Source: a virus
Lineage: Duplodnaviria > Caudoviricetes
IMG/VR virus record: IMGVR_UViG_3300024328_000748
Span: 1 to 59,169 of that record
Reading direction: 5' to 3' (one strand)
Length of the DNA: 59,169 nucleotides
The first letter of the stretch is position 1; each line of letters opens with the position of its first letter. The position numbers were made by a program, and so were the translations under genes. The notes below the pieces were generated by a model. It worked only from the letters and a program-made list of their open reading frames with translations, searched no databases and was not told the origin of the DNA. Below, in pieces: positions 50,221 to 57,014 of the stretch.

Positions 50221-50468
50221 TGTTACACACTGTAGAAGCACTAATAGACAAGATTAAAGCAATGCACGATAAAGCAATTTTACTACATAGACTTCGAAAT
50301 CAGTATTCAGAACATGCAGACCAAACATACGACAAAGCAGAATGCCAGTCTCTAATTGATGATATTCAATACATGGCTAAACTTATTTCAAACGATAAAC
50401 AAGGTGATGAGATTAAAACCGAGATGGAATACAAGAAATTTTTAAAGGATAACGAAAATGAGAATTGA
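50220..50468 (+). CDS. Hypothetical protein
   Basis: TAATG-coupled ORF with a GGAGG SD. Confidence 0.6.
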
Positions 50469-51588
50469 CCAAGATATTAAACTAGACTACAGTGATGTGT
50501 TAATTCGCCCAAAGCGTAGTACATTAAGTTCACGCAAACAAGTAAGACTTGAACGCAAGTTTAAATTTAGAAACAGCAGACACGAGTACGAAGGTATTCC
50601 TATTATGGCTGCTAATATGGATGGTGTTGGAACATTTGAACTAGCAGATGAACTTGCACAACAAAATATATTTACATGTTTAGTAAAAACATATTCAGTG
50701 GAAGAACTTGTAGATTTTTTTAACAATGATTATCCAGATAATAGAAGAACACAAAACATTGCTATGAGCATTGGTACAGGAACAATAGACTTTGATAAGT
50801 TAGAAGCCGTGTATAATAAAGTAAGCAATAAACTAAAATATGTATGTATGGATATTGCAAATGGTTACAGTGACCATTTTGCACAACACGTTAAAAAAGT
50901 ACGTGATAAATTTCCGAACTTAGTAATTATAGCAGGTAACGTAGTTACTGGAGAAATGACAGAGGAGTTAATTTTAAATGGAGCTGATATTGTTAAAGTG
51001 GGCATTGGTCCCGGGTCTGTTTGCACTACTAGGATTCAAACTGGTGTGGGATACCCGCAACTATCTGCGGTCATCGAATGCGCCGATGCAGCACACGGAC
51101 TTGGGGGTCACATTATTGCTGATGGTGGGTGCAGTTGCCCTGGAGATGTCGCTAAAGCCTTTGCTGCTGGAGCAGATTTTGTTATGCTTGGTGGCATGCT
51201 CGCTGGGCACGATGAAGGCGGCGGCGAAGTAATTACCCGATACTATGAAACTAGTGAACTAGAATATGAAGTTGGCGAGCATTTAAATAATCGCAAACAT
51301 AAAGTAGAAGAAAAGAAGTTTGTACAATTTTATGGAATGAGTTCAGATGCAGCCAACACAAAACATTTTGGCGGACTAAAAGACTATCGTTCAAGTGAAG
51401 GACGTGAAGTACTTGTGCCATATCGCGGTGCAGTTGCTAACACACTTCAAAATATATTAGGTGGAATTAGATCAACTTGCACATATGCAGGCGCAATGAA
51501 ACTCAAACAACTTAGTAAATGCACAACGTTTGTTCGTGTTAACAATCAGTTTAACAAAACATACGAAAGCACAACAACCAAAATATAA
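50458..51588 (+). CDS. guaC: GMP reductase
   Basis: [46 protein letters not shown]. Confidence 0.93.
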
Positions 51589-51672
51589 CTTTTAAACAGG
51601 TATGTATACAGTGCATATCGTCTTTGCATAAATAAGTATGGTTTATTGCGTTCATACGTGATAAATAAAAGT

Positions 51673-51919
51673 GTAATAAACAACAGCACAACGTTGTGTT
51701 GTTATTTACATATACAACGTAGTATAGAGCGACCTCGGCTCGGAAAAAAAGAGCGGCAGTTAGTGCCACGCTAACTGACTCTGGGAAAGACCAGGGCATA
51801 ACCCATGCCTTACAAGCGATACGTTAGCAGGTATCGTGGTAGCGGCCAGGAGAGACTGGCAAAGAAGAAACGGATGCTTTCCCAAAAACATCCCATATAA
51901 AACATTTAAGGAGAAGCCA
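51673..51919 (+). ncRNA. Candidate multi-hairpin structured RNA leader (about 250 nt)
   Basis: At least seven consecutive hairpins, two GARAGA-loop stems and an 8-nt long-range complement; begins 5 nt after TAAATA (51662-51667). Confidence 0.6.
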
Positions 51920-52114
51920 ATGGCAACCAATTTTTTTGGTGCATGGGCAGGACTCTTCAACGGATCACGTAGAACTCGTGTGAGATATGAGGCTGAACTG
52001 CTTACCTATGCAAAAACGGAATACACTAACGACTGGCAGTATGCATATCAGTATATGCTGGCCAACAAGGGCAAAGGCCCACAAACAGTATCACTGAAGG
52101 TGGGTGCAAAATAA
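51920..52114 (+). CDS. Small protein 1 (64 aa)
   Basis: TAAGGAG SD; start moved to MATNFF. Confidence 0.7.
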   Translation: MATNFFGAWAGLFNGSRRTRVRYEAELLTYAKTEYTNDWQYAYQYMLANKGKGPQTVSLKVGAK

Positions 52115-52284
52115 TGATTAAACGATTAATTAAAATGGCAAGAATGTCAACGTTATCAAGAGAAGAAAAATACTTAGCTAGTTCAACGGATCTAGTTGAG
52201 CTCGAAAGACGTCAAAGACTAATACAGAGAGGCCAAGCACCTTGGCAACCTGTAACTAATAAAAATTTAAGAGGATGGGTATAA
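52114..52284 (+). CDS. DUF3563-like small protein (56 aa, not in ORF track)
   Basis: EEKYLASSTDLVELERRQR resembles the AYL/DLE signature; TAATG coupling. Confidence 0.65.
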   Translation: MIKRLIKMARMSTLSREEKYLASSTDLVELERRQRLIQRGQAPWQPVTNKNLRGWV

Positions 52285-52469
52285 TGACTACAACAGTATT
52301 ATATAACACTACATGCAGAGTATGTGACACAATCAAAGTAGGTTTAGTAACAGCCGCTATGGCAGTATGGGCATTTGGCGAAAGTGCCGGAAGAGCAAGA
52401 GCAGCCGCAGAACTACACCGCCAAGGCTATACAAAAGAAGCTAAAGCATTAATGTTGAGTGACAACTAA
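52284..52469 (+). CDS. Small protein 3 (61 aa)
   Basis: TAATG coupling; GESAGRARAAAELHRQGY. Confidence 0.7.
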   Translation: MTTTVLYNTTCRVCDTIKVGLVTAAMAVWAFGESAGRARAAAELHRQGYTKEAKALMLSDN

Positions 52470-52603
52470 TGTTTAAGAGATTTTTAAAAGCAATGGAATA
52501 CAGAAGTTATTGCATGAGCATACAGCAACTTAGAAACATGGGCGAGTTTGAAAAAGCCAATGAAATATCTGAGTTCAAGCATAATATGTATCCTACACAC
52601 TGA
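52469..52603 (+). CDS. Small protein 4 (44 aa, not in ORF track)
   Basis: TAATG coupling; MFKRFLKAMEYRSY... Confidence 0.6.
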   Translation: MFKRFLKAMEYRSYCMSIQQLRNMGEFEKANEISEFKHNMYPTH

Positions 52604-52614
52604 GGAATAATAAA

Positions 52615-52788
52615 ATGAAACTGATCAGAACACTGAAAAACATTTTGAGTTCAAGCTATGATAGACAAGGTGCTCGTGCTTTACACAGCATGACTGACCG
52701 CGAACTAGCAGACATTGGAATATGTCGTGGTGATATCAATAGACTAGTTAGAACACAAGGTGAATTTAACAGAAAAAACCAAATGTAA
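52615..52788 (+). CDS. DUF1127 (YjiS-like) small protein (57 aa, not in ORF track)
   Basis: LHSMTDRELADIGICRGDI matches the LxxxxDxxLxDIGxxRxxI signature; GAGGA SD. Confidence 0.85.
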   Translation: MKLIRTLKNILSSSYDRQGARALHSMTDRELADIGICRGDINRLVRTQGEFNRKNQM

Positions 52789-52811
52789 CAACCTATAAAT
52801 ATCTTTACATT

Positions 52812-52848
52812 AAAAACCGTATATTGTTAACGCAGTGTACGGTTTTTT
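52812..52848 (+). terminator. Probable terminator closing the small-protein operon
   Basis: AAAAACCGTATATTG...CAGTGTACGGTTTTTT. Confidence 0.7.
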
Positions 52849-52881
52849 ATTATGTACAGTTTTAATCGGCTAAATACTATT

Positions 52882-53865
52882 ATGAGTAAAGTAAATCTAA
52901 TACCCGACTTAGTACAACAAATAACTGTAGCTAAAACGCAGGAAGAAAAGTATGAGCTTGTAAAAAAGTATGAAAAAGAAACATTAGTTAAGCGTATAAT
53001 GATTTTTGCATACAATCCATGGATAGATTTTAAATTACAAACTTTTACACCAAAGCACAGCGGTAAACAATTTGGCATGGGTATAAGTAAATTTATGCAC
53101 ATGTTCGAAGAAATTATTGAAGGACAACTTGATCCAAAGGATGCAGAGTTTGGATTTAATATGGCATTTTTGCATATAGAGACAAACCAAGCACCTGTTA
53201 TGCTTGCACTAATTAATCAGACATTAGACAAACAACTAGGACTTACTGCAGAAACAATAAACCGTGTGTGGCCAAATTCAATACACACATACCCATTACG
53301 TGTAGCATTAGAATCAAATTACACAAAATTTGATAACTTTCCTGCATCTGTGCAAACAGTAAGTGAAGGTCTACGTATAAATGTTATTGTATATGATGGA
53401 ACTGTATCTTTTAGACAAAAAGATGGCACTGTAATTGAAGGATGGAAATATTGGAATCAACAGTTTCTTAATCTTGCACAAGGGCAGAATACTGTATTTG
53501 ATGGACATGCCGTAATTGCAAAAAACAACAAGGTAGCTGAAACAGACAACGCCAAAGTATTAGAGGCCGATATTGAAGATATAAGATTTATATTTTGGGA
53601 TGTTATACGTTACGATGGATTTGTTCACGGCGAAGATACACGCATAGGGTACAACTGGCGTTACAACGGACTTGAACATATGATGATGTTAGCATATGCA
53701 AAGAACCCAGAACCATGTTATGATATATTAAAAGCAGAAATGGTTGGGTCCAAAGAACAATTAGAATCTACTATTAAAAACTATAGTAAGGCAGTTATAA
53801 AGTCGTTAGATAGTACTTGGTCTGATGGCTCAACTGAGAATGAAATTATTTTTTCTCAGAAATAA
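52882..53865 (+). CDS. Degenerate ATP-dependent DNA ligase-like protein
   Basis: T4 gp30-like order AYNP...ETINRVWP...FPASVQTVSEGLR...VFDGH...FIFWD, but motif I KxDG reads VSEG and there is no OB domain. Confidence 0.65.
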   Translation: MSKVNLIPDLVQQITVAKTQEEKYELVKKYEKETLVKRIMIFAYNPWIDFKLQTFTPKHSGKQFGMGISKFMHMFEEIIEGQLDPKDAEFGFNMAFLHIETNQAPVMLALINQTLDKQLGLTAETINRVWPNSIHTYPLRVALESNYTKFDNFPASVQTVSEGLRINVIVYDGTVSFRQKDGTVIEGWKYWNQQFLNLAQGQNTVFDGHAVIAKNNKVAETDNAKVLEADIEDIRFIFWDVIRYDGFVHGEDTRIGYNWRYNGLEHMMMLAYAKNPEPCYDILKAEMVGSKEQLESTIKNYSKAVIKSLDSTWSDGSTENEIIFSQK

Positions 53866-56219: not shown

Positions 56220-57014
56220 ATGAAAATAGCATTCTGTATCTCAGGTGAAACAAGAGAACATAATAAGTTTTATGGTCCTGATAGTATGATAACATATCTA
56301 ATGGAACTAGGTCATACTGTAGATGTGTTTGGGCATACATGGGACCACTCAGAAGTGCCAAATTCTAGTTTGTATAATTTTAAATTATTGCAAATAGACA
56401 ATCAACATAAAATTATAAGCGATTGGAAAAATGTCGACTTAATAAATAGAGCATGGTTTGCCGACTCTACGCAAATTGTTAAAGAATCAGGCAAAGAAAT
56501 GATACAGTCGTTAGATATTACAAATGCAAAAATAGGCCAACATGTTAGTGGATGGAAATGTTTGCAAATGCCAGATACAGATCAATATGATGTATTTTAT
56601 CGATGGAGATGGGATTTAAAATTAGATCCTGGTCTACTTGAGAATGAAAGATACATGATAGATAAAACATTAATTCCATGGTTAGATTATGTAAAAACTA
56701 ATAACAAAATACCAATAGTTATAACAGATAATAGTGGGTGGATAGCAAGAAACATTAGTGTACAAGATCAACATTTTTTTATGAATAAATTAACACATCT
56801 AAATATAAAACAAAAATCATGGGAAGAGGCGATATTAAATGTCTGGTACAGAAATAGAGAAAAATGTAGCTATCATATGTTATGGAACTGGATGTTAATA
56901 GATGAAGCAAGCGCATTCATTGGCGAAAAAGTTCATGATATAGTATCGCTTACAGCAACGTTGCCACACAACAACAATGAAAACTTTGAATTAACTGACT
57001 TGGATGAAACGTAA
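56220..57014 (+). CDS. Putative glycosyltransferase-like protein
   Basis: MKIAFCISGETR...DVFGHTW...YDVFYRWRWD pattern. Confidence 0.5.
   Translation: MKIAFCISGETREHNKFYGPDSMITYLMELGHTVDVFGHTWDHSEVPNSSLYNFKLLQIDNQHKIISDWKNVDLINRAWFADSTQIVKESGKEMIQSLDITNAKIGQHVSGWKCLQMPDTDQYDVFYRWRWDLKLDPGLLENERYMIDKTLIPWLDYVKTNNKIPIVITDNSGWIARNISVQDQHFFMNKLTHLNIKQKSWEEAILNVWYRNREKCSYHMLWNWMLIDEASAFIGEKVHDIVSLTATLPHNNNENFELTDLDET

What the first reader, a model, noticed from the sequence alone, without database searches (positions are those of the whole stretch)
51662..52848. Self-contained unit: ~250-nt multi-hairpin RNA leading five tiny coupled proteins ending in DUF1127
Seen: a late-type TAAATA promoter, an ORF-free GC-richer structured leader, five 44-64 aa ORFs (the first four linked by TAATG overlaps, three missing from the ORF track) and a terminator. 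ORF2 looks DUF3563-like and ORF5 carries the DUF1127 signature. Several of the proteins are Arg-rich or begin with amphipathic helices. Known: Rhodobacter DUF1127 protein CcaF1 binds RNA and is co-transcribed with the CcsR sRNAs, and other DUF1127 proteins affect phosphate/Pho regulation. Inference: this is a phage-encoded RNA plus small-protein regulatory module that may act on host RNA turnover or phosphate signalling. It is my best candidate for an undescribed system in this window.
Basis: partly seen in the sequence, partly recalled or inferred. Interest (0 to 1): 0.82.

Follow-up and report, generated by a model that had tools for sequence, protein, structure and literature searches.

The report
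Folded leader RNA heading phage microproteins
An uncultured giant ocean phage carries a strongly conserved folded RNA of an uncatalogued family directly ahead of five tiny, genuinely protein-coding genes, a unit that recurs in hundreds of marine phage fragments and whose job is still unknown.

Summary
A GATAAATA late-type promoter motif (51660-51667) precedes a GC-rich, non-coding RNA with a 169-nt core (51725-51893). Five coupled small genes follow. ORF2 passes Pfam DUF3563 and ORF5 passes DUF1127. All five evolve under purifying selection, with median dN/dS 0.19-0.38.

The RNA is far more conserved than its flanks: 93.9% mean pairwise identity against 73-78% for neighbouring coding DNA (171 pairs). 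Its stems covary. It matches no Rfam 15 family.

It is one subtype of a much larger family. A second subtype occurs in at least 120 viral contigs. An ORF1-family gene follows it in 77 of 79 distinct loci. Contigs of seawater RNA libraries hold the locus. I found it in no cellular genome and no GenBank phage.

The mechanism is inferred only. My best guess is a protein-binding leader that sets expression or processing of its own Arg-rich microprotein operon. The 8-nt loop-loop pairing is not supported across the family.

This scan found the same RNA family earlier on other DNA, with concordant verdicts.

The parts
51660..51667 (+). T4-late-type promoter motif GATAAATA; the extended conserved block ATAAATARAWGTGT runs to 51673
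   Evidence: locates it. It is invariant in 18 of 18 aligned relatives and reads TATAAATA in several relatives. Promoter activity is inferred, not shown.
51677..51708 (+). Variable 5' hairpin, not part of the conserved core
   Evidence: Fold. Compensatory changes at A1 column pairs 73/90 and 76/87. The hairpin is absent in L007 and shortened in L005.
51711..51726 (+). Small hairpin AUAC...GUAU just ahead of the core
   Evidence: Pair 101/114 is A:U in 8 sequences and G:C in 8.
51725..51893 (+). Conserved RNA core (169 nt): P1 51727-51741, P2 51757-51777, P3 51779-51796, P4 51795-51809, UUACAAG 51810-51816, P5 51810-51842, P6 51845-51860, P7 51872-51893
   Evidence: Covariance model R1 scores it 197 bits. 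There are 44 distinct variants among 74 matches. 99.1% of cells pair and 8 of 48 pairs show compensatory change, against at most 2 pairs and 27-37% paired for slid controls. No Rfam match at E <= 10.
51779..51796 (+). P3 hairpin CUCUGG-GAAAGA-CCAGGG (family signature: G|GANAGA|C loop)
   Evidence: Across the family 94 of 109 sequences keep at least 4 contiguous pairs with many different stems. Shuffled partners average 28.3, maximum 39.
51845..51860 (+). P6 hairpin GCCAG-GAGAGA-CUGGC (second GANAGA loop)
   Evidence: P3 and P6 are the only two such hairpins in the 59-kb window on either strand. Pair 143/152 occurs as A:U (37), G:C (3) and U:A (1).
51872..51893 (+). P7 hairpin GGAUG-CUUUCCCAAAAA-CAUCC. 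It holds the family-wide GCUUUCC element next to the ribosome binding site.
   Evidence: GCUUUCC is kept in both subtypes but sits in different local hairpins.
51908..51913 (+). Shine-Dalgarno AAGGAG of ORF1
   Evidence: Read from the sequence. GGAGA precedes the ORF1 start in the relatives shown.
51920..52114 (+). ORF1, 64 aa, with the core motif YAKTEY..DWQYAY.YM; the constant partner of the RNA
   Evidence: No Pfam, PHROG, NCBIfam or PADLOC hit. A profile search finds 127 clusters of small proteins. dN/dS 0.25. AlphaFold2 predicts one helix at 18-48, mean pLDDT 66.
52114..52284 (+). ORF2, 56 aa, DUF3563
   Evidence: PF12086 at 31.1 bits, cut-off 26.9. dN/dS 0.19. Present in 6 of 22 representative loci.
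52284..52469 (+). ORF3, 61 aa (an alternative ATG at 52275), with CxxC and a GRARAAAEL.RQGY.KEAKAL motif
   Evidence: A profile search finds 1765 clusters, none with a Pfam domain among the 120 listed. The ESM Atlas neighbours are viral. dN/dS 0.38.
52469..52603 (+). ORF4, 44 aa
   Evidence: dN/dS 0.20. Present in 10 of 22 representative loci. No family hit.
52615..52788 (+). ORF5, 57 aa, DUF1127
   Evidence: PF06568 at 35.4 bits, cut-off 23.3. The only DUF1127 in the record. dN/dS 0.35.
52794..52847 (+). TATAAATA (52794-52801), then a hairpin with a U run (52812-52847), lying between ORF5 and the ligase-like gene
   Evidence: Contigs of two RNA libraries from two studies run into adapter-like letters right behind 52790. 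This is only a weak hint of an RNA end upstream of this hairpin.

Best explanation
Shown:
- This is a late-promoter-headed operon of an uncultured marine giant phage. Its 5' leader is a member of a large structured-RNA family that is not in Rfam.
- The family's features are an array of hairpins with G|GANAGA|C loops, a P4 hairpin, a UUACAAG joint, and a GCUUUCC element 15-40 nt from the ribosome binding site.
- An ORF1-family microprotein gene always follows directly. It is coupled to further microproteins: DUF1127 and/or DUF3563-like, the ORF3 family, and sometimes ORF4.

Inferred (my commitment):
- The leader acts in cis as a protein-binding scaffold for the operon's own Arg-rich microproteins. 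DUF1127 is the published RNA binder.
- Binding to the repeated GANAGA hairpins and the GCUUUCC element beside the RBS sets translation, stability or RNase processing of the transcript. In short, it is a feedback or maturation ribonucleoprotein.
- This resembles the ccaF1-CcsR and SMc02051-NfeR loci, where a DUF1127 protein binds and shapes the hairpin-array RNA made from its own transcript.
- The released proteins, and possibly a processed leader, then act on host RNA metabolism late in infection.
For: - RNA reality: z = -4.2. Mean pairwise identity is 93.9%, against 73-78% for flanking coding DNA in 171 pairs, while dS of the neighbouring ORFs is about 1.
- Covariation: 8 of 48 pairs are compensatory and 99.1% of cells pair, against 27-37% for slid controls. 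P3 keeps pairing with many different stems in 94 of 109 sequences, against 28.3 for shuffled partners. P4 shows 35 distinct stem and loop combinations.
- Strand: G-U pairs fit only the + strand.
- Linkage to ORF1 rather than to guaC: a 1.7-kb insertion in L004 separates guaC from the RNA but not the RNA from ORF1. In the sister subtype guaC is upstream in 12 of 96 loci, while an ORF1-family gene follows within 80 nt in 77 of 79.
- No terminator lies between the leader and ORF1.
- A contig of a seawater RNA library runs from the 3' part of the leader through ORF5 without a difference (X2, 51834-52790).
- Repeated identical loops suggest a repeated binding site. The only two G|GANAGA|C hairpins in 59 kb are both in this RNA.
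- Near-invariance of loops and joints is more than folding alone requires.
- Published: CcaF1 (DUF1127) binds CcsR RNAs and their precursor, and acts with RNase E in their maturation. In S. meliloti the hairpin RNAs appear to come from the 5' UTR of the DUF1127 gene (passages of PMC8034643).
- Published: a cellular DUF1127 gene is controlled through its mRNA leader (abstract of PMC12218461).
Against: - No binding, processing or regulation has been measured.
- The same protein cassette works without this RNA in L011/L013, L020, L021 and the Melnitz phages.
- 22 of 79 sister-subtype loci (19 '1-2-3' and 3 '1-3') have no DUF1127 match within 1.6 kb. DUF1127 therefore cannot be the universal partner.
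- The Arg-rich stretch of ORF1 is not conserved across the wider ORF1 family.
- Salmonella YjiS (DUF1127) showed no RNA association in pull-downs (passage of PMC11707872).
- A. tumefaciens DUF1127 proteins act through PhoR (abstract in the listing).
- The minimum-free-energy fold leaves the SD unpaired.
- Most relatives were retrieved with motifs of the RNA itself, which inflates its apparent conservation.
Confidence: 0.4

Rival explanations
1. A leader-derived trans-acting small RNA. The 5' UTR is cut off and accumulates. Its C/U-rich loops (ACCUC in P1, AACCC in P4, CUUUCC in P7) pair with purine-rich ribosome binding sites of host or phage mRNAs, as cuckoo/CcsR RNAs do. The microproteins help its maturation.
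For: - C/U-rich loops are present.
- The CIN1 precedent has hairpin RNAs from the 5' or 3' UTR of DUF1127 genes (PMC8034643 passages).
- The GCUUUCC sequence is kept while its local hairpin differs between subtypes. That fits a pairing seed.
Against: - There is no terminator or mapped cleavage site after P7.
- Conservation covers nearly every base, not just a seed.
- Only contigs, not raw reads, were available, so no separate RNA species can be shown.
- No target was sought, because the host is unknown.
Confidence: 0.2
2. A riboswitch-like or thermosensing switch. CUUUCC in P7 pairs with the GGAGA of the ORF1 SD (OFF state). The GGGAAAG of P3 competes for it (ON state). A ligand, protein or temperature decides between them.
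For: - UGGGAAAG (51782-51789) is perfectly complementary to CUUUCCCA (51877-84). Both motifs are invariant in the complete subtype-A variants; only the truncated L099 differs.
- By my own reading of the sequence, UUUCC can pair with GGAGA.
- A multi-helix junction with highly conserved joints resembles an aptamer.
Against: - In the sister subtype the P3 loop is GAUAGA in 37 of 81 variants while its partner stays CUUUCC, giving a U-U mismatch.
- The 3 variants that change the middle base of CUUUCC show no compensating change.
- L099 lacks the partner altogether.
- The distance and sequence between P7 and the SD vary.
- The SD is open in the minimum-free-energy fold.
- There is no Rfam riboswitch match.
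Confidence: 0.12
3. A decoy or sponge for a host RNA-binding factor or defence sensor, for example a GGA-binding CsrA-type protein, Hfq or ProQ. On this view the RNA is made in bulk late in infection and works independently of the downstream genes.
For: - GGA-containing purine loops are repeated 2-3 times, and ACGGAUG resembles the CsrA site as I recall it. That is recall, not a test.
- There is an A-rich (ARN)-like linker, AGAAAAAAAGAG.
- Extreme conservation fits a conserved host partner.
- The locus is held by contigs of 20 listed runs from 17 studies, 15 of them on record as RNA.
Against: - The strict position directly ahead of ORF1 (77 of 79) is not needed for a sponge.
- The host is unknown.
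- There is no match to the Csr/Rsm families in Rfam.
Confidence: 0.1
4. A nut/put-like antitermination element. The GNRA-like purine hairpins are bound by an arginine-rich peptide of the operon, as lambda N binds boxB, and modify RNA polymerase to read through downstream terminators.
For: - The RNA sits next to the promoter.
- The purine hexaloops resemble boxB loops as I recall them.
- ORF1 of this window has an RRTRVR stretch, and DUF1127 is Arg-rich.
- A terminator-like hairpin follows the operon.
Against: - The Arg-rich stretch of ORF1 is not kept across the family.
- I saw no boxA-like element.
- T4-type late transcription is not known, to my recollection, to use such factors.
- Nothing was tested.
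Confidence: 0.06

Closest known systems
CIN1 loci of Alphaproteobacteria: the DUF1127 gene ccaF1 with CcsR1-4 (R. sphaeroides), and SMc02051 with NfeR/cuckoo RNAs (S. meliloti; Rfam ar14)
   Same: A small DUF1127 gene is co-transcribed with an array of short hairpins carrying C/U-rich loops. In S. meliloti the RNAs appear to come from the 5' UTR. The protein binds and shapes its own RNA (PMC8034643 passages).
   Different: - No CCUCCUCCC loop motif occurs in the leader (the only near-match in the window is at 56821).
- There is no ar14 or other Rfam match.
- The phage RNA has GANAGA loops and a multi-helix core.
- The gene next to the RNA is ORF1, not DUF1127.
- The setting is a phage late promoter, not an RpoH-dependent one.
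Leader/uORF attenuation of a DUF1127 gene in Sinorhizobium meliloti (PMC12218461)
   Same: DUF1127 expression is set by its mRNA leader and by translation of upstream small ORFs. C-rich and RBS pairing is involved (abstract).
   Different: In that system a uORF and premature termination do the work. Here the leader is non-coding and no terminator lies between it and the genes. The upstream ORFs are conserved proteins.
Lambda N / boxB (nut) and autoregulatory phage translational operators such as the T4 gene 32 leader (recalled, not tested)
   Same: A promoter-proximal or RBS-proximal folded RNA is recognised by a small basic phage protein encoded nearby. The loops are purine-rich and GNRA-like.
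   Different: I saw no sequence or family match. The loops here are hexaloops (GANAGA) repeated 2-3 times. No binding partner has been shown.
Pfam DUF1127 (PF06568) and DUF3563 (PF12086) small proteins
   Same: ORF5 and ORF2 pass the curated cut-offs. DUF1127 genes are annotated or detectable in 12 GenBank phage records.
   Different: The published functions are divergent: RNA binding, PhoR binding, membrane association. None was studied in a phage. My full-text search for DUF3563 found 0 papers.

Membership tests
Pfam DUF1127 (PF06568) | Profile match above the gathering score | tested here: met
   ORF5 scores 35.4 bits against a 23.3 cut-off, E = 8.8e-9. A six-frame search of the record gives 34.8 bits.
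Pfam DUF3563 (PF12086) | Profile match above the gathering score | tested here: met
   ORF2 scores 31.1 bits against a 26.9 cut-off, E = 2.4e-7.
Cuckoo / CcsR / NfeR RNAs (Rfam ar14, CIN1) | Hairpin loops carrying the CCUCCUCCC anti-SD motif | tested here: not met
   With up to 1 mismatch the motif has a single match in the window, at 56821-56829 on the minus strand and outside the leader.
Cuckoo / CcsR / NfeR RNAs (Rfam ar14, CIN1) | Match to the family covariance model | tested here: not met
   No such hit at E <= 1 over 51000-53500 or at E <= 10 over 51650-51930.
Cuckoo / CcsR / NfeR RNAs (Rfam ar14, CIN1) | Adjacency to, and co-transcription with, a DUF1127 gene | tested here: inconclusive
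   A DUF1127 gene lies in the same coupled gene row 720 nt downstream. One RNA-library contig spans 51834-52790, but a contig does not prove a single transcript.
Any Rfam 15 family (4227 models) | Covariance-model match | tested here: not met
   The window leader gives only chance-level rows at E 0.6-7.7. Eight sister-subtype loci give no hit on the RNA at E <= 0.1.
T4-type late promoter | TATAAATA at about -10, with no -35 element | tested here: inconclusive
   The window has GATAAATA (7 of 8), which is invariant in relatives; some relatives have TATAAATA. No start site has been mapped, and the late sigma/co-activator genes are not in this 59-kb fragment as far as I looked.
The phage leader-RNA family described here (subtypes A and B) | G|GANAGA|C hairpin, P4 hairpin, UUACAAG joint and GCUUUCC element, followed by an ORF1-family gene | tested here: met
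   The window scores 197 bits with R1. R1, built from subtype A alone, also finds 26 of 80 subtype-B loci at E <= 0.01. Intermediates L126, L128 and L156 join the subtypes.

The most novel reading that the evidence does not exclude
The leader and its Arg-rich microproteins form a new kind of phage ribonucleoprotein effector. A hairpin array displays SD-like purine loops (GANAGA) and an anti-SD-like CUUUCC element. Together with ORF1, ORF3 and DUF1127/DUF3563 peptides it engages the host translation or RNA-decay machinery late in infection. On this reading it is a widespread, highly expressed, RNA-based host-takeover device of ocean giant phages, rather than a mere expression control of its own operon.
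Probability: 0.15. Interest if true: 0.9.

Novelty: new variant of a known kind. Interest (0 to 1): 0.7.

Why it matters
If this is right, ocean giant phages share a strongly constrained RNA of unknown function that is absent from RNA catalogues. It sits in front of a cassette of microproteins that annotation pipelines largely miss.

The RNA is held by contigs of many seawater RNA libraries. It offers a natural partner RNA for testing what DUF1127, DUF3563 and two unnamed microprotein families (127 and 1765 clusters) actually bind.

It gives a concrete, testable model: a 170-nt RNA, five peptides short enough to synthesise, and a cultured phage (Melnitz on an OM43 host) that carries the protein cassette. 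That model could answer the open question of how DUF1127-type proteins work and how phages use small RNAs and microproteins.

Tried and rejected
- **Chance or DNA-level element:** rejected on covariation, strand-specific G-U pairs and conservation.
- **Hidden coding leader:** rejected, because frame-breaking indels occur in relatives.
- **Known RNA family:** rejected.
- **Loop-loop 'kissing' pairing as a family-wide feature:** not supported. Within subtype A it is invariant and therefore untestable.
- **RNAalifold variants:** the consensus on A2 preferred a long-range GGGAAAG/CUUUCCC helix. The C:G to A:U change in 6 variants fits the local P3 hairpin instead.
- **P2 outer helix (GAG/CUC):** this competes with P3 for column 59. 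I did not count this variant (S2).
- **ORF3 C-terminus and ORF4 as homologues:** hhalign probability is 11%, so this is not supported.
- **ESM Atlas:** no usable hit for ORF1.
- **PADLOC and NCBIfam:** no hits for any of the five peptides.
- **Complex prediction on ORF1 with DUF1127:** 'no answer', score 0.00. This is evidence neither way.
- **Depth in RNA-library contigs:** it was highest over the RNA core, and the ligase-like gene was little covered in 3 of 4 runs. Contig depth sums all strains that share the conserved RNA, and holes prove nothing, so I draw no conclusion on relative expression.
- **Host:** not identified. The two genome-collection hits for ORF1 are MAG contigs that look like phage DNA.
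- **Architecture tally:** it used crude peptide regexes. Of 38 distinct subtype-A loci reaching the ligase-like gene, 3 seemed to lack ORF1 or DUF1127. Two of these (L069, L113) were regex misses. I did not inspect the third ('3DL').
- **Supplementary files:** I requested none. Supplementary Figure S2 of PMC8034643 (locus orientations) might bear on the CIN1 comparison.
- **'Not in print':** this rests on the paper search only.
Full report
**What is there**

The window is a 59-kb viral record that CheckV puts at 17% complete. It is a fragment of a giant phage. Its DnaB-like helicase is closest to those of jumbo phages PA5oct (51.6%) and Atu_ph07.

Between a GMP reductase gene (50458-51588; Pfam IMPDH, E = 4e-72) and a ligase-like gene (52852-53865; PHROG 114) lie these elements:
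- a GATAAATA motif (51660-51667);
- a 250-nt leader;
- five small ORFs, the first four joined by TAATG overlaps;
- a hairpin with a U run (52812-52847).

ORF2 passes Pfam DUF3563 and ORF5 passes DUF1127. ORF1, ORF3 and ORF4 match nothing in Pfam or PHROGs at useful levels, and nothing in NCBIfam or PADLOC.

**Is it more than chance?**

The leader is GC-rich: 0.53 against about 0.3-0.4 in the flanks. It folds with z = -4.2, and 0 of 200 shuffles fold as well.

Loci anchored on the neighbouring ligase-like protein, and so not chosen by the RNA, carry the leader in 8 of 10 cases. All 10 carry ORF1 and a DUF1127 gene.

Leader identity to the window is 80-96% in loci whose GMP reductase is only 69-92% identical at the protein level. 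Over 171 locus pairs, the RNA core averages 93.9% identity. That compares with 77.9% for the guaC 3' end, 74.9% for ORF1 and 73.3% for the ligase 5' end. The caveat is that most loci in that set were retrieved with RNA motifs.

The five ORFs are real genes. Median dN/dS is 0.25, 0.19, 0.38, 0.20 and 0.35 at dS of about 1. The frames that cross the leader are broken by indels in relatives.

**Structure**

A covariance model of the 169-nt core (R1) finds one copy in the window. It finds 74 copies in 74 fetched loci, of which 44 are distinct.

I wrote a structure of seven local hairpins plus the loop-loop pairing. On it, 99.1% of cells pair and 8 of 48 pairs show changes on both sides. Slid controls give at most 2 such pairs and 27-37% paired. 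That alignment was fitted to R1, which leans it towards the structure.

P2 is dispensable. It is replaced by 1-2 nt in 12 of the 44 distinct variants. The P5 stem and loop vary freely with compensation. P6 occurs as A:U, G:C and U:A at one pair.

G-U pairs place the function on the + strand.

**A much larger family**

An ORF1 profile scan of genome contigs gave a MAG contig, L117. It has ORF1-DUF1127-ORF3-DUF1127 and a weak R1 hit directly upstream.

Its 3' element, shared with the odd variant L099, was found in at least 120 viral stretches. These give 87 distinct 237-nt segments.

These 'subtype B' RNAs share the following with the window's 'subtype A':
- the late-promoter motif;
- a P3 hairpin with a G|GANAGA|C loop;
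- P4;
- a UUACAAG joint;
- one or two further purine-loop hairpins;
- GCUUUCC close to the SD.

R1, built from subtype A alone, detects 26 of 80 B loci at E <= 0.01, with a graded score series. L126, L128 and L156 are intermediates.

Across both subtypes P3 keeps at least 4 contiguous pairs in 94 of 109 sequences with many different stems. Shuffled partners average 28.3, maximum 39. P4 shows 35 stem and loop combinations among the 84 sequences where my script found it.

No Rfam family matches the RNA in the window or in 8 B loci.

**Gene linkage**

In 22 of 22 subtype-A representatives ORF1 and DUF1127 are present. ORF3 is in 20, ORF4 in 10 and DUF3563 in 6. Gene order varies.

In subtype B an ORF1-family gene starts within 80 nt of the RNA in 77 of 79 distinct loci that have at least 700 nt downstream. 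The other two begin with an ORF best matching my DUF1127 profile. 19 of the 79 have ORF1, a DUF3563-like gene and ORF3 but no DUF1127 within 1.6 kb, and 3 more have only ORF1 and ORF3.

guaC is upstream in only 12 of 96 B loci. In L004 a 522-aa gene is inserted between guaC and the promoter. The RNA therefore travels with ORF1.

The reverse does not hold. The protein cassette occurs without this RNA in L011/L013, L020, L021 and the cultured Melnitz phages of Methylophilales.

**Distribution and expression**

- The three-motif pattern has 35 viral matches and 0 in 185,579 species genomes.
- A two-motif pattern has 51 metagenome matches.
- GenBank phages show no match to either RNA subtype or to ORF1.
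- The ORF1 family has 127 representative clusters, nearly all 42-99 aa (the two exceptions are among the weakest hits). Of 86 members scanned, none has a credible Pfam hit.
- The ORF3 family has 1765 clusters.
- 20 of 22 listed runs hold at least half of the sampled words. 15 of them are on record as RNA, and they come from 17 studies of sea water.
- Contigs of 4 of 4 runs cover roughly 51695-52790. One 979-nt contig spans 51834-52790 without a difference.
- Contigs of two studies end in adapter-like letters right behind 52790. Contigs cannot show levels, starts or strands.

**Mechanism**

Nothing is measured. The near-invariance of loops and joints, the repeated GANAGA hairpins and the fixed place beside the RBS of ORF1 point to a cis-acting, protein-bound leader.

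The published precedent is the DUF1127 protein CcaF1. It binds and helps mature the hairpin RNAs of its own transcript. The S. meliloti orientation has those RNAs in the 5' UTR (PMC8034643, passages read). A DUF1127 gene is also controlled by its leader (PMC12218461, abstract read).

Against a universal DUF1127 partner stand three points: the 22 B loci that showed no DUF1127 match, the negative RNA pull-down for YjiS (PMC11707872 passage), and the PhoR route in Agrobacterium (PMC12501420, abstract in the listing).

The proposed loop-loop switch is perfect in this window. In subtype B, however, 37 of 81 variants carry GAUAGA opposite an unchanged CUUUCC, and the rare changes in CUUUCC are not compensated.

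The AlphaFold2 model of ORF1 is a single helix of modest confidence.

**Comparison and novelty**

The closest known systems are the CIN1 loci. The defining cuckoo motif and the Rfam model are both absent, so this is not a member. It may work like one.

I found no paper on this RNA.

Earlier follow-ups of this scan described the same family on other genomes. They reached the same verdicts, including the rejection of the loop-loop switch. I reached the family and the linkage independently before reading them. They gave me the CIN1/cuckoo lead, which I then tested.

**Verdict**

This is a real, widespread, uncatalogued phage leader-RNA family with a microprotein cassette. Its function is open.

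Noticed in passing
L117:87-140 (minus strand): A glutamine riboswitch aptamer (Rfam RF01739, 49 bits against a gathering score of 35) lies about 130 nt upstream of the leader RNA, on a contig binned as a Flavobacteriales MAG that otherwise looks like phage DNA.
   Followed up: no
window 52263-52284; also L058, L060, L061, L079, L113, L117: The C-terminal motif N-L-(R/T/K/D)-G-W-(V/I) recurs on whichever small protein precedes ORF3: DUF3563 here, ORF1 or DUF1127 elsewhere. It overlaps the ORF3 ribosome binding site. It looks like a shared recombination or coupling junction that moves with ORF3.
   Followed up: partly
window 52311-52322; L058, L060, L063, L079, L097: ORF3 has an invariant T-C-x-x-C near its N-terminus. 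In some loci the DUF1127 protein carries a similar N-terminal T-Y-C-x-x-C extension. This could be a shared metal or dimer site.
   Followed up: no
L001 (Methylophilales phage Melnitz-3, MZ577098.1) 1968-2668: A cultured phage carries TATAAATA, a leader of about 95 nt that is unlike this RNA, a 52-aa ORF faintly ORF1-like by eye (RTEY...AFYNHVM; not detected by my profile), then ORF3-family and DUF1127 genes. It is a possible laboratory model for the protein cassette.
   Followed up: partly
L004:3139-4707: A 522-aa gene followed by a strong terminator is inserted between guaC and the leader's promoter in one relative. By eye it looks like a PAP2/haloperoxidase-type protein; I did not search it.
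   Followed up: no
L011:3395-3560: In the clade that lacks the RNA, the guaC-ORF1 spacer holds a sigma-70-like TTGACA-17-TATGTT, a region of about 130 nt and a strong intrinsic terminator. Then comes a TATAAATA and a short leader. This may be a separate small RNA gene (fold z = -3.4).
   Followed up: no
window 52790: Contigs of two RNA libraries from two studies continue into adapter-like letters immediately behind 52790. That is 2 nt after the ORF5 stop and upstream of the terminator-like hairpin.
   Followed up: no
window 52852-53865: The downstream ligase-like protein matches PHROG 114 (ATP-dependent DNA ligase) only weakly (E = 6.8e-16) and has 22-28% identity to phage ligases. I did not check this.
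   Followed up: no
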